NCBI GenBank assembly: GCA_965220085.1
Contig: CBDCOZ010000003.1
Coordinates: forward strand, 1,056,001-1,120,000
Source of the DNA: Candidatus Oxydemutatoraceae bacterium
GTDB taxonomy: Bacteria > Pseudomonadota > Gammaproteobacteria > Poriferisulfidales > Oxydemutatoraceae
Reading direction: 5' to 3'
DNA: 64,000 nucleotides
Shown here: piece after piece, positions 3,688 through 59,706 of the stretch
Position numbering within the stretch: the stretch's first letter is position 1
Layout of the letters: the number at the start of each line of letters is the position of its first letter
The notes under the pieces: generated by a model
Seen by the model: only the letters and a program-made list of their open reading frames with translations
What the model was told of the DNA's origin: nothing
Databases searched by the model: none
Position numbers and translations under genes: made by a program

Positions 3688-3967
3688 ACGGGTTGCTTCA
3701 CAAAAGTACCGGCATATCAATATGATAGGTCGGCCTTGGCCGACAGCGGAACCCGGGCGGATGCGATTTGAAGCCCGTATGCCAGAGGGCCTCGTCACAG
3801 AGACGGGCACAGCGTCGCAGGAGATATTGACGGGGCTATGCGATTGTGGCCGACTGTCTGTTAAGGGCAAGCCCCCATCTGTGCGAAGGCGCGGGGCGAT
3901 CTACCCGTTTGGCGACAGGGAACATTCTTCTGCCGCTCACCCGCCGCCGTTGCGTCTGTGTTTCCCG

Positions 3968-4828
3968 CTACCGCAACGGGCCTTCCAGGAAGAGGCGCAG
4001 GCGCAGATTGATCGCGTCCCCGATTATCCGGACGCCGTCGGAGCACAACGGCCCCTCGTTGCCGGGAGTGGTATGCCTGTCCATAAAGCTGATGCAGACC
4101 CTGATGTACATCCACGCCTGATCATCCGCGGGGACAAATATTCTGTTGGTCGCGCCGCTGATGTCGGCATATGCGCCGGTGCGGGCGGGGGATTGTTGCC
4201 ATTGCCAACTCTGGGTGAGAATGTTGATGATATTGAGGTCAACAACATCGGAACTATCGTCCGTCAGTTGCTGACCTCTGTCGTATGTTCTCCGGGGAGG
4301 CGAGCCCGGGGCGATTATCGTGGGCGCGCCGGTGGCTTTTTGTTGCTGGGATGCGCGAAGATGGATGGTGGCCGTGGCGGTACGGGATTCATCGCCGCCG
4401 GCAGTGATGCTGTATGTAAAGGCGGTGTAGTTCAATTGCGCGCTCTGGCTCGGTTGCGGGTAGTAGGTGATGGTGTTGATACTGCCTTCTGCCACATTCT
4501 GGCCTGCGGTGGCGGCGGAGTTGCCTACCCGCATGGTGCCAAGGAGCGGCAGGCTCTTTATCGTGATGTGGTCCAAGGGATCGGAATCTGCGTCAAGAAA
4601 AGGGAAGTCGCTTTTCACGAAGCTGTCCGGGCTGGCGGCGGTGGCGTTGTGCGGCACCCATATTGCGGTGTCCCTGGCCGCCGGTCCGGCCTGTGCGACT
4701 GGCGCGGTCGGGTCTGCGGTGTTGTGCGGTTGGTCGCTATGTGCCTGACCGCAGACGGCAATCAGGACGAGCAACCAGAGGGCGCGACCATCGCTGTTGC
4801 CCGTCGGTTGCGTCAAGGGAGTAAACAT
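3968..4828 (-). CDS. Secreted Ig/cadherin-like domain protein with C-terminal LRLRLFLEGPLR motif
   Basis: Signal-peptide-like RALWLLVLIAVCGQAHS; two beta-rich domains (DADSDPLDHITI...YTAFTYSI and ATGAPTI...WQWQQS...ISGAT); ends DAINLRLRLFLEGPLR*. Confidence 0.8.
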   Translation of the reverse strand: MFTPLTQPTGNSDGRALWLLVLIAVCGQAHSDQPHNTADPTAPVAQAGPAARDTAIWVPHNATAASPDSFVKSDFPFLDADSDPLDHITIKSLPLLGTMRVGNSAATAGQNVAEGSINTITYYPQPSQSAQLNYTAFTYSITAGGDESRTATATIHLRASQQQKATGAPTIIAPGSPPRRTYDRGQQLTDDSSDVVDLNIINILTQSWQWQQSPARTGAYADISGATNRIFVPADDQAWMYIRVCISFMDRHTTPGNEGPLCSDGVRIIGDAINLRLRLFLEGPLR

Positions 4829-5175
4829 GATTCGGTATCCTTATGAAGTTTATGCGCAAGATATTATACAAAGTATTCGCACAGCTGCGCATTCGCCCGC
4901 GGTGATGTCCGCATTCCCTCACGCGTACGAAGGGAGTGTGCGGGCGCGAATGACAGACTGCCATCCGTCGGCAAACACAAGCGGCGGCGGGTGCGCATCA
5001 GAAAACGCTCCCCGCGCCAGGCGGGCAGGCCGCGCCCGCGCCTCCGCATGGATGCGGGACTTGTCCTGACAGCCGGTCGGCCCGCCGTATACGCCCCTGC
5101 GCTATGTGTTGGCCGCATATCTTTGTACAATACTCCTTCGCTGATTCCTGCTTACCTCTATTTGGAGTACCTCTT

Positions 5176-23700: not shown

Positions 23701-26670
23701 AATGTCTTGGAGAGCCTGACTGCGACAGACTCCGACGAGGATGCCAACACGATAGCGGAGACGGCGACTACGGGTACCGCGGTGGCCGGCATAGTTTTCG
23801 CGGCGACCGACGAAGGCGGCAGGCCGGTGACAGAAGGGCTGACTTGGAGCTTGGCGGCTGATCCGAGCGGCTTGTTTGCGATTAGCACCGGCGGCGAAGT
23901 GACATTGATTGGCACGGCGGACTACGAGACGACCCCGACCCACACGGTGATGGTTCAAGTCGCAAAAGGCGGCACCACTTCGTCGGCGGTCGCACTGACG
24001 ATAGATGTGACGAATATTCCGGAGACACTGACCGTAACAAATGCCGACAGCACGGGGACAGCCATGATTGCGGTCGCGGAGAACGCAATCATAGGCACCA
24101 GGGTGCCGGGCATCCGGCTTATCGTGACCGACGAAGCGGGCACGGAAGTGGCGGAAGGGCTGACTTGGAGTTCAACCAGCACCTTGTTTATGGTCAATCC
24201 GGCTACCGGCGTGATTGCGACAAGCGCCGCATTGGATTATGAGACTGCGACGAGCCACACGATAACAGTCACGGCGGCTTCCGGCGGTGTCAGCGGCAGC
24301 ATCGGCTTGACGATAGATGTGGAGGATGTGCTGGAGACGCTGGCGATTACAGACGACGATCCTGCCGCTAATACAATTCCCGAGAATGCGTCGATTGCCT
24401 CAGTGGCGGGTGTGGATTTGACCGTGGCGGATGAAGGCGGCAATCCCGTAACCGGAGTGGCCTGGGCCCTGACCGATAACGCCGGCGGCAGGTTTGAAAT
24501 CAATCCGAACTTTGACTTGATTACAGCGACAGCGCCGTTGGATTATGAATCATCGACAAACTTCGTGATAATGGTTCGCGCCACAAGCGACGGGGTGAAT
24601 TCCGCCTCGTTCCCGATGACGATAGAGGTGACGAATGTATTTGAGACCTTGAAAATTGTTGATAACAATGCCGCTGACAATACGATTGCCGCAAACGCCG
24701 ACACAGGCGCCATAGTTGACGGTGTTGAACTGGAGGCAATCCCTGACATCGACGAAGGTCGCTCCATAGCATGGATGTTGGTCGATAACTCCGAGGGGCT
24801 GTTCCAAATAGATGCGCACACCGGTGTCATCAGCCTGATGAGCGGCGGCGCGCTGGATTATGATGCGAGGCAGAGCCACACTGTGAGAGTGCAAGCTCAG
24901 GCAGTCGGCGGTCCTGAAGGCAGCGAGGATGTGCGGTCCAATGTGTTGGAAGTGATAATTGCAGTAGGGACAGACTACGACCGTGACGACGATAACCTGA
25001 TAGAAATCACGACACTGGAACAACTCGACGCGGTGCGCTACGATCTGGATGGCGACGGCAAGCCGTCTACGGGCAGCCAGACTGCTTATGAAATGGCATT
25101 CCCCGACGCCGCCGTTGCCATGGGTTGTGCCAGCGCCTGCACCGGATATGAATTATTGAACGGGCTTGATTTCGCCGCCACGACGAATACGGCATGGACA
25201 AGCGGCGAAGGTTGGGAGCCGATTGGCGATGGCGGCAATCACTTTACGGCGATATTCAATGGCAATGGCAATACGATTGCCAACCTGCATATCAACCGCA
25301 ACGCGGACAGCCAAGGCTTGTTCGGCGTGATTGGCGGCAATGGCACGGTAACAAATGTCGGCGTGACCGGTTCGGTGACTAGCGATGGCTATATTTACGC
25401 CGGCGGCTTGGCAGGCCGATCGTATGGCGGCGCGATAGAGCGGTCTTACTCAACAGTGTCAGTGAATATTGACGATGGGATAGCCGGCTCATTGCTGGGC
25501 TTTGGCACCGGCGGCGAGGTGCGCGCAAGTTATGCGACCGGCAATGTGCATAGCGGCGGTTCTTATGCGGGCGGTTTAATCGCCGGTACTAATGCTGACA
25601 GCAGGGCAGAGCATGTCTATGCAACCGGATATGTAAACGTGACCGATTCGGATCGTGGATTAGTTGGCGGTTTATTTGGCGCCTTCACTAATCGACTCAG
25701 CCTGATTAATTATGCTTACTCCACCGCGTTTGTTAATCCTACTGCGCGATTCAGAGGCGGTATCAGCGGAGGAAACGAGTCCAGTAACAGCATATTTGCC
25801 TCTGTTTATTGGGATACCGAAACCTCCGGTGTGACTGCTGCAGTCGGAGCGGGCGTTTCCGACGGTATCACGGCGCAGACAACCGCCGGATTGCAAACTC
25901 CGACAACCTACACCGGCATCTATGCCAACTGGAACGCGAATGATGCCGATGGCAATCCGACCGATTATTGGGACTTCGGTGAGAACGACGAATACCCGGC
26001 ATTGAAGATTGACTTTAACAACGACGACAGGGCGAGCTGGCAGGAGTTTGGTTGTCAGTTGCGCCAAGGCCCGATAGGGTTGGGAATTGCGCCTGGCAAT
26101 ACGGACACGGCAATATTGAACTGGACAGCGCCCGACACATCGCATTGTGCTAACGCGGGGATTACGTATCGCGTCTATCGTGGCGGGGTGGCGCTCGCAT
26201 CGACTGCGGCTGTAACATATACGGCGCCCGGGGCAACGGAAGGCGCCACATACTATGTCGCGGCGGTTATCAACGGCGGCGAGGCGAGTCGCTCCGCAAT
26301 AGCTTACAGTCCGCCCATCCCCCCGGCATTGACGATTGCGGATAGCAACGATGCTGACAATGCCATCGCCGGAGATGCGGCGGCAGGTACGGAGGTATCC
26401 GGCATTGAACTGATTGTGCGCGATGAGAACGGCGCGGATGTGACGGATGATGTGAGCTGGGAGTTGACCGATAACGCGGACGGCATGTTCGCAATAAACG
26501 CCGAGGGCGTAATCACTGTCGCAGGCGCGTTGACCGCAGGAGATCAAACGATAACGGTTCAAGCCGAAAGGGACGGAGTGACTTCGGATCCGTTTGAGTT
26601 GATAATAACTGTGGAAGCCAGCGTGCTGAGGTTGCGTCTGCGCCTCTTCTTGGAAGGCCCGTTGCGATAG
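11713..26670 (+). CDS. Giant secreted adhesin-like protein 1 (GLUG/Ca-binding modules, roughly 30 cadherin-like repeats, Cys-rich inserts, LEGPLR C-terminus)
   Basis: 4985-aa ORF; signal peptide RHRLLLGAFAIATTVLAYPVAA|Q (true start probably 11788-11809); three DYDxDDDxLIEI modules; cadherin hallmarks IAENA..GT, LFAI...G.I, LDYE; ends LRLRLRLFLEGPLR*. Confidence 0.9.
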   Translation: MPLPLFLRRRSNRRGRHACYFVCRFMRMGSKGVTGVRHRLLLGAFAIATTVLAYPVAAQTDYDSDDDGLIEITTLEQLDAIRFDFDGDGVPGESTPTYAEAFPDAADNMVQMGCPGGICSGYELMNDLDFDDPTSYAASTANTAWTSDAGWPAIGNATDSFSATFNGNGHTIANLHIDDSTRLQGLFGYVSGTVSNIGVTGAASVFTGGGVAGLLRDGTVERSYSTVSVNGDSSVGSLLGLLVPGTVRLSYATGVVFVSAGLGGASGGLLGASSDDDPSGSNKAEHVYATGFVDRDRGGANNSAGGLLGSPGLLELQYAYTTALVGGSGGQSGGLAGGNDDDFSATAVYWDTEASGRAVAIPSAAKTGVDGRTAAELQAPTTYAGIYANWDEGDTADYWDFGNASQYPALKIDFDNNSDASWEEFGYQLREGPRLREGLQRVTQDKIDFDLRWSAPDTSHWDSPPQISYRIYRDGSALEIGADDIGETLDANGDTVYSYADAGLSGDTVHIYHIAAVVGGGEPSRSAIVFEADYDRDDDGLIEINTLEQLNAIRWDPDGDGKPANASSRTYAEAFPGITDNTGCPDTCGGYELINDLDFEDPRSYAVADPLDYDWIDNPDDGNAEEGWPPISGFTATFNGNGHAVYNLYVSRNANDQGLFGSVSGTITNIGITGLIVSPVFFAGGLAGQLNNGGMIEKSYSAVAVEDGIWSGSLAGMMNGGAAVRLSYASGVVNASANAGGLLGVTLDALIPNTTTETLEHVYATGFVDASDAGNAGGLTATVGALRLKYIYATALVSGSGEGSSGLGGYDEAGFAATAVYWDTETSNQSVGVATRSGMPVTGVEGKTTAELQAPTTYTGIYANWDEGDTADYWDFGTAEQYPALKIDFDNNDMARWQEFGYQLREGPQNVEISAASATGITLSWTAPDTSHWDNPPSVTYALYRDGAPLSLAADAIAETADANGDVVYSYADLGASADTAYRYHIAATVNGGEPSRSYVFAGRLGVTDRDAALNTIAESGTTGTAVSGLRLSVTEMGAAPFGDVIWGLDDPTDTFGISAASAEIGLLASDTLDYASTRTYSVAVTATLDGTELPPLPLTINVLNDIENVRVQDDDPSPNRVLENTPIDTPISGLSLAAYEMPASGGSVELEQATWSLADNADFDPYTGGIFAIDAAAGTLTLVAAADYETSSQHSVWAVAAVTHPITGDVLRGGERFEVRVVNIPETLTIMDGDPAANTIAENATTGTAVTGIALQAHEDDLPLTGGADFRWELTDTAADLFAIDPVSGEITLVASGMLNYEDIGARTHSVTVRAVAGAVVSDDLELTISVLNVPDTLTIIDSDMNANTIAENAVANMPVTGIVLSASDEAGATVSAVTWSVASSPTDLFTIDAGGAVRLSASDTLDYETTTMHTIEVRGMADGIRSDTLSLTIVVTDFDETIVPPTVTDADPAANTIAENSTDTAVSGVALAAIRDGNQLSDITWILTDDADGLFVIATDTGVIKTATDRAPDYEAAVRHAVTAVAIAADGSIVALDLPIEVRNVPESLTIADSDTNANAIAENATTGTEVAGINLTVTDEGGDGVSGVSWSLESTPTGLFGIDTDGVITLAASGRLDYDAGARNHSVMVTAAAAGYQSATATLTINVTNVLEELKIANRSTGTTIALAEDATTGTGTVVPGIDLEVTDEADREVTEGLTWSLVTNPGNLFAISTTSGEITLAGKLNYEAATQHTVMVQAAKGEINSAPFSLTIRVTVSCAAPATLNSATNVCECSAPNVGMGSDCQAPSVQVCGALMPPKFFRETACVDFVFCDAPMVLDAMTNTCVPPQLRIADTAEGANEIAETATTDTEIAGVTLEAQYPAGVAVSGVTVTWGLSDNADGLFTIGSASGVITLAASGRLDYDAGARNHSVMVTAAAAGYQSATATLTINVTNVLEELKIANRSTGTTIALAEDATTGTGTVVPGIDLEVTDEADREVTEGLTWSLVTNPGNLFAISTTSGEITLAGKLNYEAATQHTVTVQAAKGEINSAPFSLTIRVTVSCAAPATLNSATNVCECSAPNVGMGSDCQAPSVQVCGALMPPKFFRETACVDFVFCDAPMVLDAMTNTCVPPQLRIADTAEGANEIAETATTGTEIAGVTLEAQYPAGVAVSGVTVTWGLSDNADGLFTIGSTSGVITLAASGRLDYDAGARNHSVMVTAAAAGYQSATATLTINVTNVLEELKIANRSTGTTIALAEDATTGTGTMVPGIDLEVTDEADREVTEGLTWSLVTNPGNLFAISTTSGEITLAGKLNYEAATQHTVTVQAAKGEINSAPFSLTIRVTVSCAAPATLNSATNVCECSAPNVGMGSDCQAPSVQVCGALMPPKFFRETACVDFVFCDAPMVLDAMTNTCVPPQLRIADTAEGANEIAETATTDTEIAGVTLEAQYPAGVAVSGVTVTWGLSDNADGLFTIGSASGVITLAASGRLDYDAGARNHSVMVTAAAAGYQSATATLTINVTNVLEELKIANRSTGTTIALAEDATTGTGTVVPGIDLEVTDEADREVTEGLTWSLVTNPGNLFAISTTSGEITLAGKLNYEAATQHTVMVQAAKGEINSAPFSLTINVLNVLEELKVANGGSGEIALAENATIDTVVPGIALEVTDEDDNTVSGVEWSLASAPSGLFAIGSTSGVITLAASGRLDYDAGARNHSVTVTAAAADYEPSTLTLIINVLNVLEELAISDSDAAAAMISEAAVFGSALTGVALTVSAEEGGTIPDLTWRLSRNPNRAFAIASTNGAITLAREGVLDFETAPSIDIEVIATPRNIRTEVPESNPFPITVTVTNALETLEVDDTARADNSISENAATGTAVAGVVLEATDEDANLVSGVTWILKSTPADLFTIDNNPGVIRLVAGGRLDFETTPSVAVMVQAAKGEIESAPLSLTIAVEDALENLTVRDSNADANRIAEDAATGTQVLGIALSASETDNPVSGVKWSLSDASGLFAIGADTGVISLIAGGSLDFATTPSVAVMVQAEKDEITSDPLDLTITVLDTDENIRIVDTAGDDLFAAIDEDAEAGDALSGLALVARDAAANVLTGVVWSLNDDADSRFAIATDTGVITVAGMLDYETTPTHTVVIRATHEGNSSDFVLQVNVGNVLETLAVTDSDDDANTITENATSGTAVSGIALRVTDEGSRPVTEGLDWILASDPSGLFAISTDGAITATAPLDYETTPTTHTVMVQVAKGDITSSAVELTIDVGNVLELLTVTDSDEDDNTIAETATSGTAVAGIALAVTDEGGRPVTEGLTWSLVTNPGNLFAISVSGGEIALAGEADYETTPTHVLRVAAAADGISDAIELTVEVQNALETLMISDRDDDANEIVENVATATAVSGIDLAALDEAGTEVTDGLVWRLTENADGRFAIDSDSGVITAGRAFDYETSTQTSFSVTVAVTKDGVDSAPLSLSIALRNVLESLTLEDINAAANGIDENALAGVAVSGISFVARDEAGNEVTAGLTWTLPESAGDLFVISNQGVISVTKVTSEALDAENVADYALQARVSKDGVDSNIADVPVVVRNLLEELTIANGGSGAIALAEDATTGAVVPGIALTATDEGGNAVSSATWSLTDASGLFAISADTGVISLIAANTLDYDIEALRSHTVRAQASKDGVVSGPFALTIDVTDVLETLQIVDNNPAEDTIIENAASGTAVSGIELAAENEAGDSVRDVLWSLTDNAGGLFAISTAGAITATAPLDHETTPTHAVIVRAEKDGINSAPFLLTIAVGDVLERLTVADGNADANRIAEDATSGTQVLGITLSASDEKSEAVTDVTWSLSDDAGGRFAISADTGVISLIADSGLNFATTPSVAVTVQAEKDGVHSAGFELPITVLEVNENVLIVDIEGDDAFATIDEDATTGTMLSGARLVARDADSAELMTGVTWSLSDAAGGLFAIATDTAVITLTGMLDYETTPTHTVVIRATHEGNSSNFVLQVNVGNVLESLTATDSDEDANTIAETATTGTAVAGIVFAATDEGGRPVTEGLTWSLAADPSGLFAISTGGEVTLIGTADYETTPTHTVMVQVAKGGTTSSAVALTIDVTNIPETLTVTNADSTGTAMIAVAENAIIGTRVPGIRLIVTDEAGTEVAEGLTWSSTSTLFMVNPATGVIATSAALDYETATSHTITVTAASGGVSGSIGLTIDVEDVLETLAITDDDPAANTIPENASIASVAGVDLTVADEGGNPVTGVAWALTDNAGGRFEINPNFDLITATAPLDYESSTNFVIMVRATSDGVNSASFPMTIEVTNVFETLKIVDNNAADNTIAANADTGAIVDGVELEAIPDIDEGRSIAWMLVDNSEGLFQIDAHTGVISLMSGGALDYDARQSHTVRVQAQAVGGPEGSEDVRSNVLEVIIAVGTDYDRDDDNLIEITTLEQLDAVRYDLDGDGKPSTGSQTAYEMAFPDAAVAMGCASACTGYELLNGLDFAATTNTAWTSGEGWEPIGDGGNHFTAIFNGNGNTIANLHINRNADSQGLFGVIGGNGTVTNVGVTGSVTSDGYIYAGGLAGRSYGGAIERSYSTVSVNIDDGIAGSLLGFGTGGEVRASYATGNVHSGGSYAGGLIAGTNADSRAEHVYATGYVNVTDSDRGLVGGLFGAFTNRLSLINYAYSTAFVNPTARFRGGISGGNESSNSIFASVYWDTETSGVTAAVGAGVSDGITAQTTAGLQTPTTYTGIYANWNANDADGNPTDYWDFGENDEYPALKIDFNNDDRASWQEFGCQLRQGPIGLGIAPGNTDTAILNWTAPDTSHCANAGITYRVYRGGVALASTAAVTYTAPGATEGATYYVAAVINGGEASRSAIAYSPPIPPALTIADSNDADNAIAGDAAAGTEVSGIELIVRDENGADVTDDVSWELTDNADGMFAINAEGVITVAGALTAGDQTITVQAERDGVTSDPFELIITVEASVLRLRLRLFLEGPLR
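16536..19555 (+). repeat. 858-bp (286-aa) near-identical intragenic tandem repeat, ~3.5 copies
   Basis: Shadow ORFs recur at 16629, 17487, 18345 and 19203 (period 858); unit = two cadherin-like domains plus an 8-Cys module. Confidence 0.95.
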
Positions 26671-41475: not shown

Positions 41476-44172
41476 CTGGAGGAGTTGATGATATCCGACG
41501 GCGATACGGATGCCGCGACGATATCGGAGGCGGCGACCGTCGGTTCCACGCTAACGGGCGTGGCCTTGACAGTCTCGGTGGAGGAAGGAGGAACGATTCC
41601 GGATTTAGCCTGGAGATTGTCGCGCAATCCGAACGAAGCGTTCGCAATAGCCTCGACCAATGGCGCGATTACGTTGGCACAAGCGGGCGTATTGGATTTT
41701 GAGACGGCTCCGAGCATAGACCTAGAGGTCGTAGCGAAACCGCTGAATATAAGGACCGAAGTGCCGGAGTCAGACCCATTCACAATCACGGTGACGGTGA
41801 CGAATGCCTTGGAGACGCTGACCGTCGCAGACAGCAATACCGACGACAATACAATCGCCGAGAACGCGGCGACGGGCACCGCGGTAGCGGGTATCACTTT
41901 GATCGCGAGCGAAGGCAACACTGCCGTGACCGGAGTGGACTGGAGTTTGGCGAGCACCCCAACCGGTCTGTTCGCGATAGATGGCGACGGCGTAATCCGC
42001 TTGGTTGCCGGCGGCAGTTTGGATTTTGAGACCTCGCCGACCGCCGCAGTGATGGTGCGAGCCGAAAAAGACGGAATCACTTCGCCGGCGGTTGAACTGA
42101 CGATAGCGGTTGAGGACGCGCCGGAGATCTTGACGATTAACAGGCCGGATACCTTGGCGATTATGGATAGCGACCCTGCCGCCAACACCATCGCCGAGAA
42201 CGCGGCGACCGGCACGACGGTGACCGGCATCACCCTGCAAGCCCGCGATGAAGCGGGCGCTACGGTGAGTGTTGCGATCTGGAGCGTAGTAAGTACCCCG
42301 ACCGATCTGTTTACGATAGATGCCGGCGGCGCTGTCAGGCTGACCGCCTCAAACACCTTGAATTACGAGATATCCACGAGCCACACGATAGAAGTGCGGG
42401 CTACGGCTGACGGCATACAGTCCGACGCATTGTCCCTGATTATCCTGGTGACCGACTTTGATGAGACGATTGTTCCGCCGACCGTAAGCGACACCGACCC
42501 CGCCTTAAACACGATCGCCGAGAACAGTGCGACGGGCACGGCGGTTTCGGGGTTGCGGTTGTCGGTAACAGAGATGGGCGCGGCGCCGTTTGGCGACGTG
42601 ATTTGGGGTTTGGATGATCCGACCGACACCTTCGGGATTGGCGCTGTCAGCGCCGAGATCGGTTTGCTCGCGAGCGGTGCGCTGGATTACGCAAGTACGC
42701 GAACCTATTCCGTAACAGTGACGGCAACGCTGGACGGGGCAGAATTGCCCTCGCTGACACTGACGATAAACGTTTTGAATGACATAGAGAATGTTCGGGT
42801 TCAAGATGACGACCCGTCGCCGAACCGGGTTCTTGAGAACGCGCCGATTGATACGCCGATATCGGGCCTGTCGCTGGCGGCGTATGAAATGCCCGCTTCC
42901 GGCGGGTCTGTCGAGTTGGAACAAGTGACATGGAGCTTGGCGGATAATGCCGATTTTGACCCGTACACGGGCGGCGTATTTGCGATCGATGCCGCCAGCG
43001 GCGAATTAACTTTGGCCGTTGCGGCGGATTACGAAACATCATCGCAACATTCTGTGTGGGCGGTCGCCGCCGTAACGCATCCCATAACGGGCGATGTGTT
43101 GCGCGGCGGCGAGCGCTTTGAAATACGGGTTGTCAACATACCGGAGACGTTGACGATTATGGATGGCGACCCCGCCGCGAACACCATCGCCGAGAATGCG
43201 GCGACCGACACGGCGGTGACCGGCATCGCCTTGCAAGCAAGCGAAGGCGATCTGCCTCTGACTGGCGGCATAGACTTTATATGGGGGCTGAGCGATGCCG
43301 CGGGCGGTCTGTTCGCGATTGACCCCGATAGCGGCGTAGTCACGGTGGCGGGCGCATTGAATTTTGAGACCGCGCCGACGCATACGATAATCGCACAGGC
43401 ATCAACCGGCACGGTCAGCGACACGATAGAACTGACCATCGACGTAACGGATGTTGATGATGTCCCGCCGCCGCAGCTTGTCTACACGGCGACGATAGCG
43501 GAGGACGCAACGACGGGCACGGCGGTAGCGGGTGTGACACTGACGGCACAGGTTGCCGACGGCACAGCCGCAGGCAGCGCCGTGAGATGGTACCTGCTCG
43601 ACTCAAACGACCCCGACTTGTTCGCAATAAGTCGCGCCACCGGCGTCATCACTTTGGTTGCGAGCGGCATGCTGGACTACGAGACCGCGCGCCGCCATCG
43701 CGTAATGGTAACCGCCGTAGCCGACGGTTACGAGTCCGTCACAGCGCCGCTGATGATACGCGTGACCAATGTGCTGGAGAGATTGACGATTACAAACAGC
43801 GGCAGCGGTGCGATAGAAATTGCCGAGAATGCGCCGACCGGCACGGTGGCGCTGGCGGCCACGGATCTGACGGTGCGCGATGAGGGCAATCGCGCGGTCA
43901 GCGGAGTAATCTGGAGCGTAGCGAGCGCCCCGACCGGTTTGTTTGCGATTGACCCCGCTAACGGCGAGGTGACGGTGGCGGGCGCGATGGATTACGAGGC
44001 ATCAACCGGCCACACGGTAATCGTGCGGGCGACAAAAGACGCTGTGGTATCCAATGACCTGAGTCTGACAATAGAGGTTTTGAACGACCCGACTGATGAC
44101 GGTGGCACCGGGCCGTCCGACCCGGTGCTCAGACTCCGCCTGCGCCTATTCCTGGAGGGCCCGTTACGATGA
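39826..44172 (+). CDS. Giant adhesin-like protein 2, 3' part (cadherin-like repeats, LEGPLR C-terminus)
   Basis: Continues the same 245-aa repeat; no signal peptide of its own; ends DPTDDGGTGPSDPVLRLRLRLFLEGPLR*. Confidence 0.88.
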   Translation: MPKLRIVADTATIAENATTGTEVDWTTKLDATTHSVIVTAVTAAGYQSATATLTINVTNALEKLTIANSGNGVIEIAEGAPTGTAVPGINLVATDENDEPVTDLIWRLTDSAGDLFAIASDTGVISVNRALIFEMSTSHSITAQASSQTVVSDALTLEINVLSAEACAALTPAQFFNGTACVDFAVCVEPATLDETENTCTVPKLRIVADTATIAENATTGTEVAGIDLTATDEGGNTVSSATWSLTDSNEPALFAIATDTGAITLIASDRLDHETTPTHSVIVTAEADGYQSATATLTINVTNALEKLTIANSGNGVIEIAEGAPTGTAVPGINLVATDENDEPVTDLIWRLTDSAGDLFAIASDTGVISVNRALIFEMSTSHSITAQASSQTVVSDALTLEINVLSAEACAALTPAQFFNGTACVDFAVCVEPATLDETENTCTVPKLRIVADTATIAENATTGTEVAGIDLTATDEGGNTVSSATWSLTDSNEPALFAIATDTGAITLIASDRLDHETTPTHSVTVTAAAAGYQSATATLTINVTNVLEELMISDGDTDAATISEAATVGSTLTGVALTVSVEEGGTIPDLAWRLSRNPNEAFAIASTNGAITLAQAGVLDFETAPSIDLEVVAKPLNIRTEVPESDPFTITVTVTNALETLTVADSNTDDNTIAENAATGTAVAGITLIASEGNTAVTGVDWSLASTPTGLFAIDGDGVIRLVAGGSLDFETSPTAAVMVRAEKDGITSPAVELTIAVEDAPEILTINRPDTLAIMDSDPAANTIAENAATGTTVTGITLQARDEAGATVSVAIWSVVSTPTDLFTIDAGGAVRLTASNTLNYEISTSHTIEVRATADGIQSDALSLIILVTDFDETIVPPTVSDTDPALNTIAENSATGTAVSGLRLSVTEMGAAPFGDVIWGLDDPTDTFGIGAVSAEIGLLASGALDYASTRTYSVTVTATLDGAELPSLTLTINVLNDIENVRVQDDDPSPNRVLENAPIDTPISGLSLAAYEMPASGGSVELEQVTWSLADNADFDPYTGGVFAIDAASGELTLAVAADYETSSQHSVWAVAAVTHPITGDVLRGGERFEIRVVNIPETLTIMDGDPAANTIAENAATDTAVTGIALQASEGDLPLTGGIDFIWGLSDAAGGLFAIDPDSGVVTVAGALNFETAPTHTIIAQASTGTVSDTIELTIDVTDVDDVPPPQLVYTATIAEDATTGTAVAGVTLTAQVADGTAAGSAVRWYLLDSNDPDLFAISRATGVITLVASGMLDYETARRHRVMVTAVADGYESVTAPLMIRVTNVLERLTITNSGSGAIEIAENAPTGTVALAATDLTVRDEGNRAVSGVIWSVASAPTGLFAIDPANGEVTVAGAMDYEASTGHTVIVRATKDAVVSNDLSLTIEVLNDPTDDGGTGPSDPVLRLRLRLFLEGPLR

Positions 44173-47900: not shown

Positions 47901-49787
47901 ATGCTGGCGGTGATGCGAGGCGGCGCCCAGCTAAGCGACATCACATGGATACTGACCGACGATGCCGACGACCTGTTCGTGATTGCCACCGACACCGGCG
48001 TCATCAAAACCGCGACCGATCGCGCGCCGGATTACGAAGCGGCTGTGAGACATGACGTGACGGCGGTCGCCATCGCCTCCGACGGCAGCATCGTCGCACT
48101 CGATCTGACGATAGATGTGCGGAATGTGCCGGAGAGCCTGACGATTGCGGATAACGATCCGAGCGCGAACCGCATCGCCGAGAATTCCGCAGTCGGCGCG
48201 GCGGTGACCGGCATCGATCTGCAAGCGCGCGAAGATGAGCTGCTTCTGGCCGACGGCGCGGGTTTCATGTGGGAGCTGACCGATACCGCCGGCGGTCTGT
48301 TCGCGATTGCCACCGACACCGGTGTGGTCACGGTGGCGGGCGCATTGGATTACGAGAGTACGCCGACCCATAGCATAACCGCGCGGGCTGTGGCGGGCGC
48401 TGTGGTGTCTGATGCCTTGGCGCTGATGATTGCTGTCTTGGATGCGCCGGATGCATTGACGATTGCGGATAGCGATTCGAGCGCGAACCGCATCGCCGAG
48501 AATTCCGCAGTCGGCGCGGCGGTGACCGGCATCGCGCTGCAAGCGCGCGACGAGGACGACAATGAGGCAAGCGGGGTGACCTGGAGCGTAACGAGCGCCT
48601 CGGGCGATTTATTTGTGATTAACCCCGATAGCGGCGAGGTGACCGTGGCGGGCGCGCTGGATTACGAGAGTGCGCCGACCCATGACGTGACGGTGCGGGC
48701 TGCTGCGGGCACCGTGGTATCCGATGACTTGGCGCTGACGATACGCGTTTTGAATGTGCCGGAGACGCTGATAGTGGCAAACAGCGGCAGCGGCGCGGAG
48801 ATTGCCGAGGATGCGCGGGTCGGCACAGAGGTGCCGGGCATCGCCCTGACCGCAAGAGAAGGCGGAGTGCGTCTGGTCGGCGGCAAAGACTTCCTCTGGG
48901 ATCTGAGCTACAATGCCGGCGGCCTGTTTGCGATTGACCCCGATAGCGGCGCGGTCACGGTGGCAGGCGCATTGAATTTTGAGACCGCGCAGACGCATAC
49001 GATCATCGCGCGGGCATCAACCGGGACGGTCAGCGGCGCGATAGGGCTGACCATCGTCGTAACGGATGTTGATGATGTCCCGCCGCCGCAACAGGTTGCC
49101 TACACGGCGACGATAGCGGAGGACGCAACGACGGGCACGGCGGTAGCGGGCGTGACGCTGACGGCACAGGTTGCCGGCGGCGCTGCCGTAGGCAGCGCCG
49201 TGAGGTGGTATCTGGCCGACTCAAACAATCCCGACTTGTTCGCGATAAGCCGCGCTACCGGCATCATCACTTTGGCTGCGAGCGACAGGCTGGACTACGA
49301 GACCGCGCCCCGCCATCGCGTAATGATAACCGCCGCCGCCGACGGTTATGAGTCCGTCACAGAGCCCCTGATGATACGCGTGACCAATGTATTGGAGAGC
49401 TTGGCGATTGCCGATAGCGATGCCATGACCAATACGGTTGCGGAGAATGCGGCGGTCGGCACGACGGTGACCGGCATCACGCTGACGGTGCGCGACGAGG
49501 CCAATCGCGCGGTAAACGGGGTGATCTGGAGCGTAGCGAGCACATCGAGCGATTTATTTGTGATCAACCCCGATAGCGGCGAGGTGACCGTGGCGGGCGC
49601 GCTGGATTATGAGGCTTCCTCCAACCACTTGGTAATCGCGCGGGCCGCAAAAGACGCCGTGGTATCCAATGACCTGAAGCTGACAATAGAGGTTTTGAAC
49701 GACCCGAATGATGACGATGGCGCCGGGCCGTTTGAACCGGCGCTCAGACTCCGCCTGCGGCTGTTCCTGGAAGGCCCGTTGCGATAA
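44925..49787 (+). CDS. Secreted adhesin-like protein 3 (one GLUG/Ca-binding module, about 10 cadherin-like repeats, LEGPLR C-terminus)
   Basis: Signal peptide SLALAFVVLLFHASATA|Q (ATG 44961 likely); internal 315-bp repeats at ~46590-47555; ends FEPALRLRLRLFLEGPLR*. Confidence 0.9.
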   Translation: MITKICGDRQLHMIIKSRFTRRLLPSLPFKRSFTTTSLALAFVVLLFHASATAQAPIDYDIDDDGLIGITTLEQLNAVRFDLLDSDGIPTSDAPAYREAFPNALVGMGCPDICGGYELLNDLDFDDAADYASGTVNTDWTSGSGWEPIGRFGITLASVFNGNGHTIYNLHINRSADFQGLFGTVGKDALITNVGVTGSVNAGGYSRVGGLVSGIDKSAIESSYSAVAVEGGAYSGSLLGFMTDSAAVASSVRRSYVTGSVYAGADSGGLLGQDFHSQAQGTIEHTYATGYVDLTRTGSHARGGGLIGNLGNMALRYSYATGLIHPGSQSGGGLGGVVDATHVAINVYAAATAVYWDSETSAKTNALGRGALAGISAKTTAELQAPTTYTGIYADWDAADAAGDATDYWDFGAANQYPALKIDFNNDDIASWQEFGYQLREGPTVTTTDTSVPGTLSWRAPDTSHWDDPPPVTYNIYRDGILLSLAADAITETVDADGEVTYSYADASLLPDTVYTYHIAAVVNGGEPSRSSPFVRRPEAKNMPDALTVVDSNAAANTIAENATSGTAVTGIALQAREGGLPLTDGAGLTWTLIDNAGGLFAIATDTGVVTAAGALNYEMAMRHTITAQASTGAVAGALTLAITVENVAESLTVADDDPSANRIAENSIAGTAVTGIALQAREGDLLLTGGKDFLWMLIDNANGLFKIATDTGVVTAAGALNYETAMRHTITAQASTGAVVSALTLAITVENVAESLTVADDDPSANRIAENSAAGTAVTGIALQAREGDLLLTGGKDFLWMLIDNAGGLFKIATDTGVVTAAGALDYETTMRHTITAQASTGAVVSALTLAITVENAPESLMIADDDPSANRIAENAVANMPVTGIALEARDEAGVAVSAVTWSVASASSDLFVINPDSGEVTVAGALDYETSMSHTIEVRGEADGMLPGALSLTITVTDFDETIIPPTVTDADPAVNTIAENSTDTAVAGIMLAVMRGGAQLSDITWILTDDADDLFVIATDTGVIKTATDRAPDYEAAVRHDVTAVAIASDGSIVALDLTIDVRNVPESLTIADNDPSANRIAENSAVGAAVTGIDLQAREDELLLADGAGFMWELTDTAGGLFAIATDTGVVTVAGALDYESTPTHSITARAVAGAVVSDALALMIAVLDAPDALTIADSDSSANRIAENSAVGAAVTGIALQARDEDDNEASGVTWSVTSASGDLFVINPDSGEVTVAGALDYESAPTHDVTVRAAAGTVVSDDLALTIRVLNVPETLIVANSGSGAEIAEDARVGTEVPGIALTAREGGVRLVGGKDFLWDLSYNAGGLFAIDPDSGAVTVAGALNFETAQTHTIIARASTGTVSGAIGLTIVVTDVDDVPPPQQVAYTATIAEDATTGTAVAGVTLTAQVAGGAAVGSAVRWYLADSNNPDLFAISRATGIITLAASDRLDYETAPRHRVMITAAADGYESVTEPLMIRVTNVLESLAIADSDAMTNTVAENAAVGTTVTGITLTVRDEANRAVNGVIWSVASTSSDLFVINPDSGEVTVAGALDYEASSNHLVIARAAKDAVVSNDLKLTIEVLNDPNDDDGAGPFEPALRLRLRLFLEGPLR

Positions 49788-53200: not shown

Positions 53201-54812
53201 TGCTGCCAATGCCATCGCCGAGAATGCGGCGGTCGGCACGGCGGTGACTGGCATCGCTCTGAGCGCAAGCGACGAAGCAGGCAATGCGGTGAGCGCTGTG
53301 ACCTGGAGCATAGCGAGCGCCCCGACCGGTTTGTTCGCGATAGATGCCGACGGCGTTGTCAGGCTGGCCGCTTCGGATGCCTTGGATTACGAGAGCACGC
53401 CAACCCATAGCATAACCGCGCGGGCTGTGGCGGGCGCCGTGGTATCCAATGACTTGTCGCTGACGATAAGCGTTTTGAATGTGCCGAAGAGCCTGACGAT
53501 TGCGGATAGCAATGATGCCGCCAATGCCATCGCCGAGAATGCGGCGGTCGGCACGGCGGTGACTGGCATCGCTCTGAGCGCAAGCGACGAAGCAGGCAAT
53601 GCGGTGAGCGCTGTGACCTGGAGCATAGCGAGCGCCCCGACCAATCTGTTCGCGATAGATGCCGACGGCGTTGTCAGGCTGGCCGCTTCGGATGCCTTGG
53701 ATCACGAGAGTGCGCCGATCCATAGCGTGACCGCGCGGGCTATGGCGGGCGCCGTGGTATCCAATGACTTGTCGCTGACGATAAGCGTTTTGAATGTGCC
53801 GAAGAGCCTGACGATTGCGGATAGCAATGATGCCGCCAATGCCATCGCCGAGAATGCGGCGGTCGGCACGGCGGTGACTGGCATCGCTCTGAGCGCAAGC
53901 GACGAAGCAGGCAATGCGGTGAGCGCTGTGACCTGGAGCATAGCGAGCGCTCCGACCAATCTGTTCGCGATAGATGCCGACGGCGTTGTCAGGCTGGCCG
54001 CTTCGGATGCCTTGGATTACGAGAGTGCGCCGACCCATAGCGTGACCGCGCAAGCCTCAACCGGCAGTGTCAGCGCCACGATAGAACTGGCCATCGCCGT
54101 AACGGATGTTGATGAGACCCCGCCGCCGCAGCTTGTCTACACAGCGATAGTAGCGGAGTCGGCGACGGCGGGCACGGCGATAGCGGGCGTGACACTGGCT
54201 ACACAGGCTGTCGATGGCGCTGTGACATGGAGCCTGAGCGACCCGAACGACCCCGACTTGTTTGCGATAAGCGCCGACGGCGTAATCACTTTGATTGCGA
54301 GCGGCGCGCTGGATTACGAAGATGCCGATGCCCGCATCCATCGCGTGATGGTAACCGCCGAAGCTGACGGCGAGGAGCTCGTCACGATGCCGCTGACGAT
54401 ACGCGTGACCAATGTGCTGGAGGCATTGACGATTGTCGATAGCGATGCCACGACCAATGCGGTTGCGGAGAATGCGGCGATTGGCACGACGGTGACCGGC
54501 ATCACGCTGACGGTGCGCGATGAGGGCGATCGCGCGGTCGGCGGAGTGACTTGGAGCATAGCGAGCGTTCCGAGCGACTTGTTCGCGATTGATTCCGCAA
54601 GCGGCGAGGTGACCTTGGCGGGCGCGCCGGATTACGAGACATCGACCGCCCACGCGGTAATCGCGCGGGCGACAAAAGACGCCGTGGTATCCGATGATTT
54701 GAGGCTGACAATAGCGATTACGAAGGACCCGACTGACGACGACGGCACGGAGCCGTCCGAACCGGCGCTCAAACTCCGCCTGCGTCTCTTCCTGGAAGGG
54801 CCGTTGCGATAA
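50265..54812 (+). CDS. Secreted adhesin-like protein 4 (two GLUG/Ca-binding modules, five cadherin-like repeats, LEGPLR C-terminus)
   Basis: Signal peptide KASALVLALAVLLFRASAMA|Q; three 315-bp tandem repeats at ~53165-54050; ends SEPALKLRLRLFLEGPLR*. Confidence 0.9.
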   Translation: MELERHIANRMPRATASFLRLLPKASALVLALAVLLFRASAMAQQADYDSDNNNLIDITTAEQLNAMRYDLDGDGMPGAGTQTYAEAFVNAVDGMGCASDCIGYELLNDLDFDDAADYASGTVNADWTSGAGWAPIGSLGKNFAAVFNGNGHAVRNLRISRAAHFQSLFGIVGEDALITNVGVTGSVNARGFWFAGGLVGGVDKSAIENSYSAVAVEGGAQSGSLLGYATDASAVRRSYATGAVYADSESGGLLGRDFDSQAHGTVEHTYATGYVDVTRGGGLIGVLGNVALRYGYATGLIHPGNQSSGGLGGSVEAGAVAAAVYWDSETSAKTNAFGEGALAGVSGKTAAELQAPTSYAGIYADWNATDADGNATDYWDFGNANQYPALKIDFDNDGTASWQEFGYQLREGPRLREGLQRVTRDRIAFDLRWSAPDTSHWDNPPQIDYRIYRDGAALDIGADDIAETRAANGEIVYSYADAGLLADTVYAYHIAAVVGGGEPSRSATAFEVDYDRDDDGLIEITTLEQLSAIRWDLDGDGKPDESAREYAQAFPGITDSAGCPDTCNGYELRRDLDFDDAASYASGSVNTAWTSGVGWLPIGTVFTESFAATFNGNGHAIYNLYVNSAERYRSLFGVVNGVISNIGVTGSVSSTGSFIGGLAGVLAGFGMIEKSYSAVSVEADASGGSLAGWVSASTVRLSYASGVVNASASAGGLLGHIFLTSAHRAEIEHVYATGFVNATGDDNSVGGLLGFPGQARLKYAYATALVAPSGGGLSGDDTDDFSATAAYWDIEASDRATATPSAAIDGVEGKATAKLQAPTAYAGIYADWDEGNAADYWDFGAANQYPALNIDFDNDGMASWQEFGYQLREGPAVATTDTSAGVLSWSAPDTSHWPRDPPSVGYAIYRNGAPLRLAADAIAKTADANGDVVYSYVDPDASADSAYRYHIAATVNGGEASRSGASDAPESLTIADSNDAANAIAENAAVGTAVTGIALSASDEAGNAVSAVTWSIASAPTGLFAIDADGVVRLAASDALDYESTPTHSITARAVAGAVVSNDLSLTISVLNVPKSLTIADSNDAANAIAENAAVGTAVTGIALSASDEAGNAVSAVTWSIASAPTNLFAIDADGVVRLAASDALDHESAPIHSVTARAMAGAVVSNDLSLTISVLNVPKSLTIADSNDAANAIAENAAVGTAVTGIALSASDEAGNAVSAVTWSIASAPTNLFAIDADGVVRLAASDALDYESAPTHSVTAQASTGSVSATIELAIAVTDVDETPPPQLVYTAIVAESATAGTAIAGVTLATQAVDGAVTWSLSDPNDPDLFAISADGVITLIASGALDYEDADARIHRVMVTAEADGEELVTMPLTIRVTNVLEALTIVDSDATTNAVAENAAIGTTVTGITLTVRDEGDRAVGGVTWSIASVPSDLFAIDSASGEVTLAGAPDYETSTAHAVIARATKDAVVSDDLRLTIAITKDPTDDDGTEPSEPALKLRLRLFLEGPLR

Positions 54813-54960
54813 GCCGGAGCCGTCCTTGAGCCGACAATCTCAGAAGCCACAAACAATTGAGTGTTGTTTGTGTGCCGCCTCCCTCCGTCAGGGGAGGGTG
54901 ATTACGTTGTCTGCGTTCGCGCAAAAGCCCCCCGCAAAGGAAGCGGCAAAGGGACAGACG
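54813..54960 (+). repeat. Conserved post-stop spacer element (IS left-end-like, two hairpins)
   Basis: gagccgacaatctcagaagccacaaacaattgag... shared with 44173-44320, 56133-56280 and 59740-59835. Confidence 0.7.
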
Positions 54961-55103: not shown

Positions 55104-56132
55104 TTGACATATAGATTTATGCGGATAGAGCCCGAACAATACATTAACAAGTTGCGTGTTTCGCGTAACTCTCCCTTCCCTCGCCCGTTACCAAAAACAA
55201 GCGCGCTTGTTTTGGCGCTCGTGGTTTTGCTCTTCTCCGTATCCGCTCTTGCGAAACAACCCGCGCAACTATCGATCGACTTTGACGACAACGACGCGAA
55301 TACGGCAGTCGGTACGCCGGTCACGGCGACGGACGCATCGGATTTTGAAACCGCACAGGCGCATACGACAACGGCGCCAAATAGAGCGGTATCAGATCCG
55401 CGGTTCCCAATCACCGTCGCAACGGCCCTGCCACAGCTACAGATTACCTACATAGCGGTGGTAGCGGAGTCGGCAACGACGGGCACGACGATAGCGGAGG
55501 TAACGCTGGCACAGGTTGCCGATAGCGATGCCGCAAGCAGCGCGACATGGAGCCTGAGCGACCCGAACGAACCCGACTTGTTCGCAATAAGCAGCGCCAG
55601 CGGCGTAATCACGCTGATTGCGGGCGGCACGCTGGATTACGAGACATTAACGCAACACATAGTAATGGTGCGAGCCGAAGCCGACGGTGAGGAACTCATC
55701 ACAGTGCCGCTGACGATACGCGTGACCAATGTGCTGGAGGCATTGATGATTGACGATAGCGATGCCACGACCAATACGGTTGCGGAGAATGCGGCGGCCG
55801 GCACGACGGTGACCGGCATCGCGCTGACGGTGCGCGATGAGGGCGATCGCGCGGTCGGCGGAGTGACCTGGAACGTAGCGGGCGCCCCGGCCGACCTGTT
55901 CACGGTAGATGCCGACGGCGCTATCAGGCTGGCTACTTCGGGCGCCTTGGATTACGAGGCATCAACCGCCCACGCGGTAATCGTGCGGGCGACAAAAGAC
56001 GCCGTGGTATCCAATGACCTGGGACTGACGATAGAGGTTACGAACGACCCGACCGACGACGACGGCACAGAGCCGTCCGAACCGGCGCTCAGAATCCGCC
56101 TGCGCCTCTTCCTGGAAGGCCCGTTGCGATAA
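55104..56132 (+). CDS. Short secreted paralog 5 (two cadherin-like repeats, LEGPLR C-terminus); deletion derivative of protein 4
   Basis: Leader and signal peptide homologous to those of 50265; last two domains very similar to protein 4; ends SEPALRIRLRLFLEGPLR*; ATG 55119 likely. Confidence 0.85.
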   Translation: MTYRFMRIEPEQYINKLRVSRNSPFPRPLPKTSALVLALVVLLFSVSALAKQPAQLSIDFDDNDANTAVGTPVTATDASDFETAQAHTTTAPNRAVSDPRFPITVATALPQLQITYIAVVAESATTGTTIAEVTLAQVADSDAASSATWSLSDPNEPDLFAISSASGVITLIAGGTLDYETLTQHIVMVRAEADGEELITVPLTIRVTNVLEALMIDDSDATTNTVAENAAAGTTVTGIALTVRDEGDRAVGGVTWNVAGAPADLFTVDADGAIRLATSGALDYEASTAHAVIVRATKDAVVSNDLGLTIEVTNDPTDDDGTEPSEPALRIRLRLFLEGPLR

Positions 56133-56159
56133 GCTTAAATTGTTCCCCGAGCCGACAAT

Positions 56160-56416
56160 TCAAGGAGCCGCAAACAATTGAGCATTGTTTGTGTGTCGCC
56201 TCGCTCCCGCGAGGGGGAGAGCGCTCACATCGTCCGCTTTCGCGCAAAGCTCCCGCGAAGGGAGTGGCAAAGGCAGACAGCGCGCCATCGCACGACTGAG
56301 CGACCACACCACGGACCGAAGTTTCAAAAACCCATGACACACACAACATTTGCCTCAGGTGTCCGATATGTTATGGCATCAAACATGTCCAATATGTCTT
56401 GTCTTGGCATCATGCA
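56160..56416 (+). mobile_element. Miniature derivative of the IS481-like element (left end joined to right end, right end duplicated)
   Basis: Left-end motif gccgcaaacaattgagca, RAIARL fragment, then cacacaacatttgcctcagg...ggcatcaaACA as at 44641-44886, followed by a second tgtccaatatgtct...ggcatcatgca. Confidence 0.55.
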
Positions 56417-56455
56417 TAGCGCTCCGGTTCATGGGGTCTGTGATAAAATCCCCGA

Positions 56456-57802: not shown

Positions 57803-57821
57803 TGAATCAGGAATAGATGTG

Positions 57822-59698: not shown

Positions 59699-59706
59699 AC
59701 CCTGAT

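What the first reader, a model, noticed from the sequence alone, without database searches (positions are those of the whole stretch)
3968..4828. Same tail on an unrelated small protein outside the array
This 286-aa protein lies ~7 kb from the array on the opposite strand. It lacks the GLUG modules and LDYE-type cadherin repeats and has a different 3' flank, yet ends NLRLRLFLEGPLR. The motif is therefore portable between unrelated passengers rather than a by-product of tandem duplication, as expected of a sorting signal.
Basis: partly seen in the sequence, partly recalled or inferred. Interest (0 to 1): 0.75.

Follow-up and report, generated by a model that had tools for sequence, protein, structure and literature searches.

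The report
Shared C-terminal tag on many surface proteins
A small secreted two-domain protein ends in the same 12-residue tail as the giant adhesin-like proteins nearby, and that tail caps about 130 otherwise different proteins of one bacterium, which fits a new kind of protein-sorting tag whose function is not yet shown.

Summary
Window 3968..4828 (-) encodes a 286-aa protein, here called X, ending INLRLRLFLEGPLR-stop. The same tail ends five + strand genes of the array.

X shares nothing else with the array. BLASTP without the tail finds no significant match. A profile-profile comparison aligns only the 17 tail columns.

X reads as signal peptide, Big_9/cadherin-like Ig domain, AIR9/SCAB-like Ig domain, then tail.

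The tail is widespread but narrow in range. 131 proteins in the public protein sets carry it, always at the very C-terminus. The 90 residues before it fall into 7 unrelated classes. Of the 122 tail-bearers whose contig was listed, all but one lie on contigs of three lengths. It is absent from 185,579 species-representative genomes, from Pfam and NCBIfam models, and from searchable papers.

Among the six window copies, 8 of the last 11 codons vary, all synonymously. This points to selection on the peptide.

Best reading: a lineage-specific, post-Sec sorting or anchoring tag without a transmembrane helix. That function is inferred, not shown, and the machinery is unknown.

The parts
3968..4828 (-). 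Gene X: a 286-aa secreted two-domain Ig-type protein carrying the C-terminal tail (stop codon 3968-3970).
   Evidence: ORF. 1589 homologues at E<=1e-3. AF2 mean pLDDT 86.4.
4736..4828 (-). Residues 1-31: a Sec-type signal peptide as read from the sequence. The n-region ends in R, the h-region is ALWLLVLIAVC, and the c-region is GQAHS followed by D.
   Evidence: Read directly; no signal-peptide predictor was available. pLDDT is about 50 over residues 1-40. A crude hydrophobic-stretch test scores 83 of 129 tail-bearers.
4355..4684 (-). Residues ~49-158: domain D1, a Big_9/bacterial cadherin-like beta-sandwich.
   Evidence: Pfam Big_9 at residues 65-155, E 5e-4, below the cut-off. Paralogues hit Big_9, Cadherin_4, Cadherin_5 and Cadherin_3. 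pLDDT >90, all-beta.
4019..4336 (-). Residues ~165-270: domain D2, an Ig domain of AIR9/SCAB-Ig type with signature WQWQ...YIRVCxSF...C.
   Evidence: Atlas look-alikes score 0.90-0.91 and include IG_AIR9 and SCAB-Ig clusters. Paralogues give sub-threshold SCAB-Ig hits. pLDDT >90.
3971..4012 (-). Residues 273-286: the tail INLRLRLFLEGPLR. It reads as an amphipathic strand followed by EGPLR-COOH.
   Evidence: pLDDT is about 58, so it does not dock on the domains.
4838..4868 (-). Expression signals of X: TATAAT at 4868-4863 and AAGGA at 4842-4838, with 9 nt between the AAGGA and the ATG.
   Evidence: Read. The consensus scan did not list it as a full promoter, so only the -10 box and the ribosome-binding site are seen.
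26626..26667 (+). Tail of array gene A (11713-26670, 4985 aa).
44128..44169 (+). Tail of array gene C (39826-44172). C is probably the 3' part of a frameshifted B+C gene.
49743..49784 (+). Tail of array gene D (44925-49787).
54768..54809 (+). Tail of array gene E (50265-54812).
56088..56129 (+). Tail of small cadherin gene F (55104-56132, 342 aa).

Best explanation
X is a real, Sec-exported, adhesin-like protein. It consists of a signal peptide, a Big_9/cadherin-like Ig domain, an AIR9/SCAB-like Ig domain and a 12-14-residue tail, (L/I)RLRLR(L/V/I)FLEGPLR-COOH.

The tail is a portable peptide module selected at the protein level. It is attached to about 130 otherwise different secreted proteins of one organism. 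I read it as a lineage-specific C-terminal sorting or anchoring tag. After Sec export to the periplasm, a dedicated and still unidentified receptor, translocator or processing enzyme would read the tail and deliver or fix the passenger at the cell surface.

In this role the tail would replace the autotransporter beta-barrel that the same passenger modules carry in other bacteria. Residues LRLRLRLFLE form a 10-residue strand with one all-Leu face and one R/R/R/F/E face. This is the pattern of a membrane-spanning or sheet-augmenting beta-strand. GP would end the strand.

Shown: the motif, its strict terminal position, its spread over unrelated passengers, the synonymous-only variation, and the lack of a transmembrane helix.

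Inferred: export by Sec, surface destination, recognition by dedicated machinery, and the strand conformation.
For: (1) Distribution. A tail-profile search found 127 proteins at E<=1 (120 listed) among proteins of 87-2000 aa. No fetched protein has an internal FLEGP.

(2) Portability. There are 7 unrelated tail-proximal classes among 129 proteins. Only the tail aligns between the X family and the array.

(3) Peptide-level selection. In the six window copies, 8 of the last 11 codons vary and every change is synonymous. The three different stop codons are all used, and DNA similarity ends at the stop.

(4) Secreted-passenger character. Signal-peptide-like N-termini are readable in X and in array genes A, D and E. 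At least 83 of 129 tail-bearers pass a crude test.

(5) Passenger homologues elsewhere. X's D1+D2 module recurs up to 29 times in giant proteins elsewhere. Homologues that end in an aromatic residue carry PF03797 Autotransporter: 4 of the 7 such homologues scanned (P0084, P0132, P0088, P0148; P0169, P0031 and P0076 gave no PF03797 hit).

(6) Precedent for barrel-less Ig proteins exported in trans. 30 of 122 tail-bearers give sub-threshold hits to NCBIfam ZirU_fam across D1+D2 (X itself E 0.012). ZirS and ZirU are barrel-less Ig proteins that depend on the separate outer-membrane protein ZirT (passages read in PMC4943183).

(7) Tail conformation in the model. The tail is not packed on the domains in the AF2 model (pLDDT ~58 against >90), as expected of a free recognition peptide.
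Against: No function was tested, and no candidate machinery lies in the window. The neighbours are pstBAC, mdh, sdhCDAB, accA and tilS.

The rest of the genome could not be read.

The tail fits no known class. It has no hydrophobic helix (Arg at every second position), no aromatic C-terminus, and no Pfam or NCBIfam model hit.

The Phe is in phase with the Arg face, so the strand is not a canonical OMP beta-signal.

There is DNA-level conservation beyond codon bias. The copies differ by at most 3 of 33 nt, and the rare CGA codon is used in 5 of 6 copies. So recent common descent or gene conversion contributes to the identity.

46 of 129 tail-bearers fail the crude signal-peptide test. Several of these visibly have a signal peptide and others start inside a domain, so some may be fragments or pseudogenes.
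Confidence: 0.55

Rival explanations
1. The conserved 3' end is mainly a DNA-level handle. It would be a short homology block, together with the conserved signal-peptide-coding 5' ends, that lets the ~130 genes exchange domain cassettes by recombination or gene conversion to vary surface antigens. On this view the peptide is incidental.
For: The six window copies differ by at most 3 of 33 nt. The rare Arg codon CGA is kept in 5 of 6 copies, although it makes up 5-10% of Arg codons. The family is visibly modular, with D1, D2, He_PIG and PPC in many orders. One chimera joins a cytoplasmic SLOG domain to half a D1 plus the tail (P0200). A 21-nt poly-C tract upstream of gene B suggests phase variation.
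Against: Conservation stops exactly at the stop codon and respects the reading frame. Every difference in the last 11 codons is synonymous. Across 131 proteins, the only substitutions in the last 11 residues are L/V/I at one position and one P-to-S. 33 nt interrupted by mismatches is short for homologous recombination.
Confidence: 0.15
2. The tail works without dedicated machinery. As a cationic amphipathic strand it sticks the proteins non-covalently to anionic envelope components (LPS, capsule, matrix) or to each other, for example by sheet stacking or donor-strand pairing.
For: The sequence alternates Leu and Arg, with a net charge of about +3. The tail is free in the model. The passengers are adhesin-like Ig modules.
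Against: General electrostatic binding would not require FLEGPLR to be invariant in 130 of 131 proteins. It also does not explain how the proteins cross the outer membrane.
Confidence: 0.15
3. X is simply a diverged paralogue of the array proteins, and the tail is a leftover of duplication.
For: Both are Ig/cadherin-type beta-sandwich proteins by fold. X's D1 gives a weak Big_9 hit, a bacterial cadherin-like family.
Against: BLASTP without the tail gives a best E of 0.35. hhalign aligns only 17 tail columns. X has no Cadherin or Glug hit. The tail also follows PPC, He_PIG and Cys-rich domains.
Confidence: 0.05
4. The tail is a translation-termination, stalling or degradation tag. It would control the amount of protein rather than its location.
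For: The context Pro-Leu-Arg(CGA)-stop, with its rare codon, is conserved.
Against: All three stop codons occur, and X uses CGG. Nothing ties such a tag specifically to signal-peptide-bearing adhesin-like proteins. No known arrest motif was matched, but this rests on recall and was not tested.
Confidence: 0.05

Closest known systems
Tripartite C-terminal sorting signals read by sortase-like enzymes (PEP-CTERM/exosortase, LPXTG/sortase, GlyGly-CTERM/rhombosortase, PGF-CTERM/archaeosortase, MYXO-CTERM). The description of these systems is from established knowledge, not from a call.
   Same: A short, near-invariant signature sits at the extreme C-terminus of many Sec-exported, otherwise unrelated, often adhesin-like proteins. 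The set is greatly expanded within one genome and lineage-restricted.
   Different: Those signals are a motif followed by a ~15-20-residue hydrophobic helix and a basic cluster. Here Arg occupies every second position before the EGP, and only LR follows it, so no membrane helix is possible. No NCBIfam sorting-domain model matches the tail. A cognate enzyme could not be searched for.
Classical autotransporters (type Va secretion, PF03797 beta-domain)
   Same: The same D1/D2 passenger modules sit on autotransporter barrels in other organisms. Both have an N-terminal signal peptide. The tail begins with an amphipathic strand like a barrel strand.
   Different: X has no barrel domain. It ends in Arg rather than an aromatic residue, and one strand cannot form a pore.
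ZirT/ZirS/ZirU of Salmonella (an inverse autotransporter that exports separate, barrel-less Ig-fold proteins)
   Same: Small Sec-exported Ig-fold proteins without a barrel of their own that depend on a separate outer-membrane protein (PMC4943183, passages read). 30 of 122 tail-bearers give weak ZirU_fam hits over D1+D2.
   Different: Scores are far below the 100-bit cut-off (best 42.5; X 15.8). No ZirT-like gene lies in the window. In the passages read, no conserved C-terminal tag is described for ZirS or ZirU.
Type IX secretion C-terminal domain (TIGR04183 / PF18962)
   Same: A signal peptide plus a C-terminal signal on many diverse passengers in one genome.
   Different: That signal is a 70-100-aa folded domain; this one is 14 residues. 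The only TIGR04183 hits (P0225, P0227) lie internally, at residues 193-266, among PPC repeats and not at the C-terminus.

Membership tests
Array cadherin/GLUG proteins (paralogy with X) | PF00028 Cadherin repeats and/or the Glug motif | tested here: not met
   X has only a Big_9 hit at E 5e-4. The array proteins hit Cadherin at E 1e-15 to 1e-84, and E hits Glug at 0.006.
Array cadherin/GLUG proteins (paralogy with X) | Sequence or profile homology outside the tail | tested here: not met
   BLASTP without the tail gives a best E of 0.35. hhalign of A3 against A4 aligns only the 17 tail columns.
Tail-bearing protein set of this organism | Ends in R-L-R-(L/V/I)-F-L-E-G-P-L-R directly before the stop | tested here: met
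   X is 1 of 131.
PEP-CTERM / LPXTG / GlyGly-CTERM-type sorting signals | A hydrophobic transmembrane helix after the signature motif | tested here: not met
   Read directly: the tail is LRLRLRLFLEGPLR, and its longest uncharged run is LFL.
PEP-CTERM / LPXTG / GlyGly-CTERM-type sorting signals | Match to a curated sorting-domain model | tested here: not met
   NCBIfam scans of 5 window proteins and 122 tail-bearers gave no model hit on the tail.
PEP-CTERM / LPXTG / GlyGly-CTERM-type sorting signals | A cognate sortase, exosortase or rhombosortase in the genome | not testable with these tools
   The genome outside the window was not available.
Classical autotransporter (T5aSS) | A C-terminal PF03797 beta-barrel and an aromatic last residue | tested here: not met
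   X has no PF03797 hit and ends in Arg. Homologues elsewhere do have the barrel.
T9SS cargo | A C-terminal TIGR04183/PF18962 domain | tested here: not met
   X and 119 others have none. Two proteins have internal hits only.
ZirU family (NF040485) | Score at or above the curated 100-bit cut-off | tested here: not met
   X scores 15.8 bits, E 0.012. The best paralogue scores 42.5 bits.
Big_9 bacterial Ig/cadherin-like domain (PF17963) | Score at or above the gathering cut-off of 23.6 bits | tested here: inconclusive
   X scores 21.3 bits. Paralogue P0043 scores 34.7 bits. The fold is an Ig/cadherin-like sandwich.

The most novel reading that the evidence does not exclude
The tail defines a new class of bacterial C-terminal sorting signal with no membrane helix and no folded domain. 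It is a 10-residue amphipathic strand plus EGPLR, read in the periplasm by a shared translocator or anchor. This could be an outer-membrane barrel that accepts the strand by sheet augmentation, that is, an autotransporter barrel supplied in trans. About 130 adhesin-like proteins would reach the surface of one uncultured-looking proteobacterial lineage this way, with poly-C tracts switching individual members on and off.
Probability: 0.35. Interest if true: 0.8.

Novelty: new variant of a known kind. Interest (0 to 1): 0.66.

Why it matters
C-terminal sorting tags have repeatedly led to the discovery of their processing machines, such as sortases, exosortases, rhombosortases and the type IX system.

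This tag marks about 130 proteins, is invariant over 11 residues, and breaks the usual rule of motif, helix and basic cluster. It would therefore point to an unknown route for surface display in a Gram-negative cell.

It would also supply a ready-made list of that organism's surface proteome. The limit is that so far it is seen in essentially one assembly.

Tried and rejected
(1) Genome-collection scan for the back-translated LRLRLFLEGPL. It gave one hit, in an archaeal MAG contig. The hit is internal, with no stop after it, and is taken as chance. The source genome is therefore not in that collection, and no context for the other tail genes or any machinery could be fetched.

(2) The listing of cluster members for accessions and names. 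The organism and the record names remain unknown.

(3) A first tail profile of 24 columns was too short for the search for homologous proteins. It was rebuilt with 40-aa ends and run.

(4) Paper searches. The motif strings returned 0 papers. Two keyword searches gave nothing relevant in the listings.

(5) Complex prediction with four copies of X residues 160-286. The verdict was 'no answer' (score 0.00), so it counts neither for nor against self-association.

(6) Rfam and tRNA scans of the window found nothing.

(7) The promoter/terminator scan around X found nothing above shuffle expectation.

(8) The idea that the tail is a canonical OMP beta-signal, perhaps exposed by cleavage after Phe, was rejected on reading. 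The Phe lies on the Arg face, out of phase with the Leu face.

(9) The Sel1-repeat membrane protein and the AAA ATPase just after the array were considered as partners. They sit in a low-GC stretch and nothing links them to the tail, so they were not pursued.

Wider environmental occurrence of the tail at the DNA level was not checked.

Full report
**Observation.** The ORF listing returns an ORF at exactly 3968..4828 on the minus strand: ATG start, 286 aa, ending ...GDAINLRLRLFLEGPLR-stop. I call this protein X. A six-frame regular-expression scan finds the R-x-R-x-x-LEG core six times in the 64-kb window, each time directly before a stop codon. Five sites are on the + strand, ending genes A (11713-26670), C (39826-44172), D (44925-49787), E (50265-54812) and F, a small sixth gene (55104-56132). 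The sixth site ends X on the - strand. The 33-nt consensus with up to 3 mismatches matches six times, and none is expected from 100 shuffles. Gene B (27194-39865) has no tail. It overlaps C by 40 nt in another frame, and C's frame is open only from 39793, so B+C looks like one gene interrupted by a frameshift.

**Is X a gene?** A 374-aa ORF lies antisense to X (3722..4846, +). It is Arg/Gly-rich and has no Pfam hit. The X frame has 1589 homologues at E<=1e-3 among 1.84 billion representatives. It folds into two beta-sandwich domains with pLDDT above 90 over residues 50-270. Upstream of it lie a TATAAT and an AAGGA; the AAGGA is separated from the ATG by 9 nt. X lies between pstC and mdh and is transcribed divergently from mdh.

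**What X is.** By reading, the N-terminus is a Sec signal peptide (…GR-ALWLLVLIAVC-GQAHS|D); no predictor was available.
- Residues 65-155 give a sub-threshold Big_9 hit.
- Residues ~165-270 have no Pfam hit but resemble AIR9/SCAB-type Ig domains in the protein atlas, with scores of 0.90-0.91. Paralogues give weak SCAB-Ig hits.
- Foldseek against the PDB returns tandem Ig, cadherin and fibronectin pairs at E ~1e-4 with low TM-scores. This is the generic class only.
- The last 16 residues have pLDDT ~58 and no secondary structure.

**Relation to the array.** Without its tail, X has no significant BLASTP match to A-F (best E 0.35). hhalign of a 32-member X-family profile (A3) against the last ~330 residues of A, C, D, E and F (A4) returns a single alignment of 17 columns, which is the tail. 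X has no Cadherin or Glug hit. Both proteins are still Ig/cadherin-like sandwiches by fold, so 'unrelated' means no detectable homology, not a different structural class.

**Census.** A search with X in the 5.8-billion-protein set (157-501 aa) gave 28 other proteins, and all 28 end in LRLRLFLEGPLR. A profile of 40-aa C-termini, searched over proteins of 87-2000 aa, gave 127 hits at E<=1, of which 120 were listed. A region search with the end of A over 2741-8724 aa added one further giant protein of 6018 aa.
- Over all proteins fetched, 131 end in the motif, one of them with Ser for Pro. No fetched protein has an internal FLEGP.
- The gap of 2000-2741 aa was not searched.
- Of the 122 tail-bearers whose contig was listed, all but one have as 'longest contig' 2,046,636, 230,214 or 215,991 bp. 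The exception, P0240, sits on a 4.4-kb contig from another source.
- A scan of one genome for each of 185,579 species found only one hit. It is internal, is taken as chance, and lies in an archaeal MAG.
- The tail is thus essentially confined to one assembly, which is not in that genome collection.

**Diversity of passengers.** Whole-protein single linkage merges 124 of 129 tail-bearers, because modules are shared. The 90 residues just before the tail fall into 7 components: 64, 39 (including X), 18, 4 (the array), 2, 1 and 1. These correspond to the following:
- Big_9-like or He_PIG ends.
- The AIR9-like Ig domain, as in X.
- A Cys-rich family with no Pfam hit (…YVFNCGxGMxPAGANLNGATEC…).
- Cadherin followed by an acidic linker.
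- PPC repeats.
- Two singletons.

One protein, P0200, joins the first half of a cytoplasmic SLOG domain to half a D1 plus the tail. It is probably a rearrangement product.

**Peptide or DNA?** In the six window copies, 8 of the last 11 codons vary and every change is synonymous. The stops are TAG, TGA and TAA, and similarity ends at the stop. This argues for selection on the peptide. However, the copies differ by at most 3 of 33 nt, and the last Arg is the rare CGA in 5 of 6 copies (5-10% usage). Shared descent or conversion of the DNA segment therefore also contributes.

**Comparison with known signals.**
- No Pfam or NCBIfam model touches the tail. X and four array proteins (C, D, E, F) were scanned, and 122 tail-bearers.
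- The two TIGR04183 hits are internal, among PPC repeats.
- The tail has no run of uncharged residues longer than LFL. It therefore cannot be the helix-bearing type read by sortase-like enzymes; the description of that type is from established knowledge.
- It ends in Arg, not an aromatic residue, and the Phe lies on the Arg face. It is therefore not a canonical OMP beta-signal.
- No paper in the searchable library contains the motif strings.

**Clues to function.** X's module recurs up to 29 times in giant proteins elsewhere. About 20 of the listed homologues without the tail end in strands such as …YRLQARLRW or …GRLRF. Of seven such homologues scanned, four carry PF03797 Autotransporter. The passenger type is therefore a surface-displayed one. 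30 of 122 tail-bearers give sub-threshold ZirU_fam hits over both domains. ZirS and ZirU are barrel-less Ig proteins that need the separate outer-membrane protein ZirT for export (PMC4943183, passages read). This is a precedent for export of such modules in trans. It is not evidence of family membership, because the scores are far below the cut-off.

**Verdict.** The most likely meaning is a lineage-specific, post-Sec C-terminal sorting or anchoring tag of a new architecture. A DNA-level recombination role and a machinery-free sticky-strand role are the main rivals. Function, destination and machinery are all inferred. The decisive data are the rest of the genome and localisation experiments, and neither was within reach.

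Noticed in passing
window 27197-27217 (+): A 21-nt poly-C tract lies about 60 nt upstream of the probable true start of array gene B (ATG near 27279). It is the only C run of 10 or more in the window (0.03 expected). Paralogues P0002 and P0019 show PPPPPPP before their signal peptides, which implies similar tracts. This is a candidate for slipped-strand phase variation.
   Followed up: partly
window 39793-39865: Genes B and C overlap by 40 nt in different frames, and C's frame opens only at 39793. They look like one gene of about 5660 aa broken by a frameshift or a sequencing error, which leaves B without the tail.
   Followed up: partly
window 44215-44245, 54860-54890, 56175-56205 (approximate): About 45-60 nt after the stops of C, E and F lies a shared inverted repeat, ACAAACAAT-(5 nt)-ATTGTTTGT. 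It is a hairpin or terminator-like element. It is absent after X, A and D (read).
   Followed up: no
window 56000-60000: GC drops to 0.49-0.50, against 0.57-0.63 around it. This stretch holds an AAA_15/AAA_21 ATPase (56456-57802) and a membrane Sel1-repeat protein (58511-59698). It is probably an inserted island unrelated to the tail.
   Followed up: partly
tails at 3971-4012, 26626-26667, 44128-44169, 49743-49784, 54768-54809, 56088-56129: The final Arg codon is CGA in 5 of 6 copies, although CGA makes up only 5-10% of Arg codons in the window's genes. This is unexplained. It could reflect common descent of the DNA or the termination context.
   Followed up: partly
protein P0200 (not in the window): A 149-aa protein whose first 75 residues match the cytoplasmic SLOG/LDcluster4 and TIGR00725 families. 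The rest is half a Big_9-like domain plus the tail. It is an apparent chimera from a rearrangement.
   Followed up: no
window 3722-4846 (+): A 374-aa ORF lies antisense to X. It is Arg/Gly-rich, has no Pfam hit, and is taken as a shadow ORF of a GC-rich gene.
   Followed up: yes
L001 3296-3327 (-): This is the only genome-collection match to the back-translated tail. It lies in a 7.4-kb Hermodarchaeota MAG contig and has no stop after it, so it is taken as chance.
   Followed up: yes
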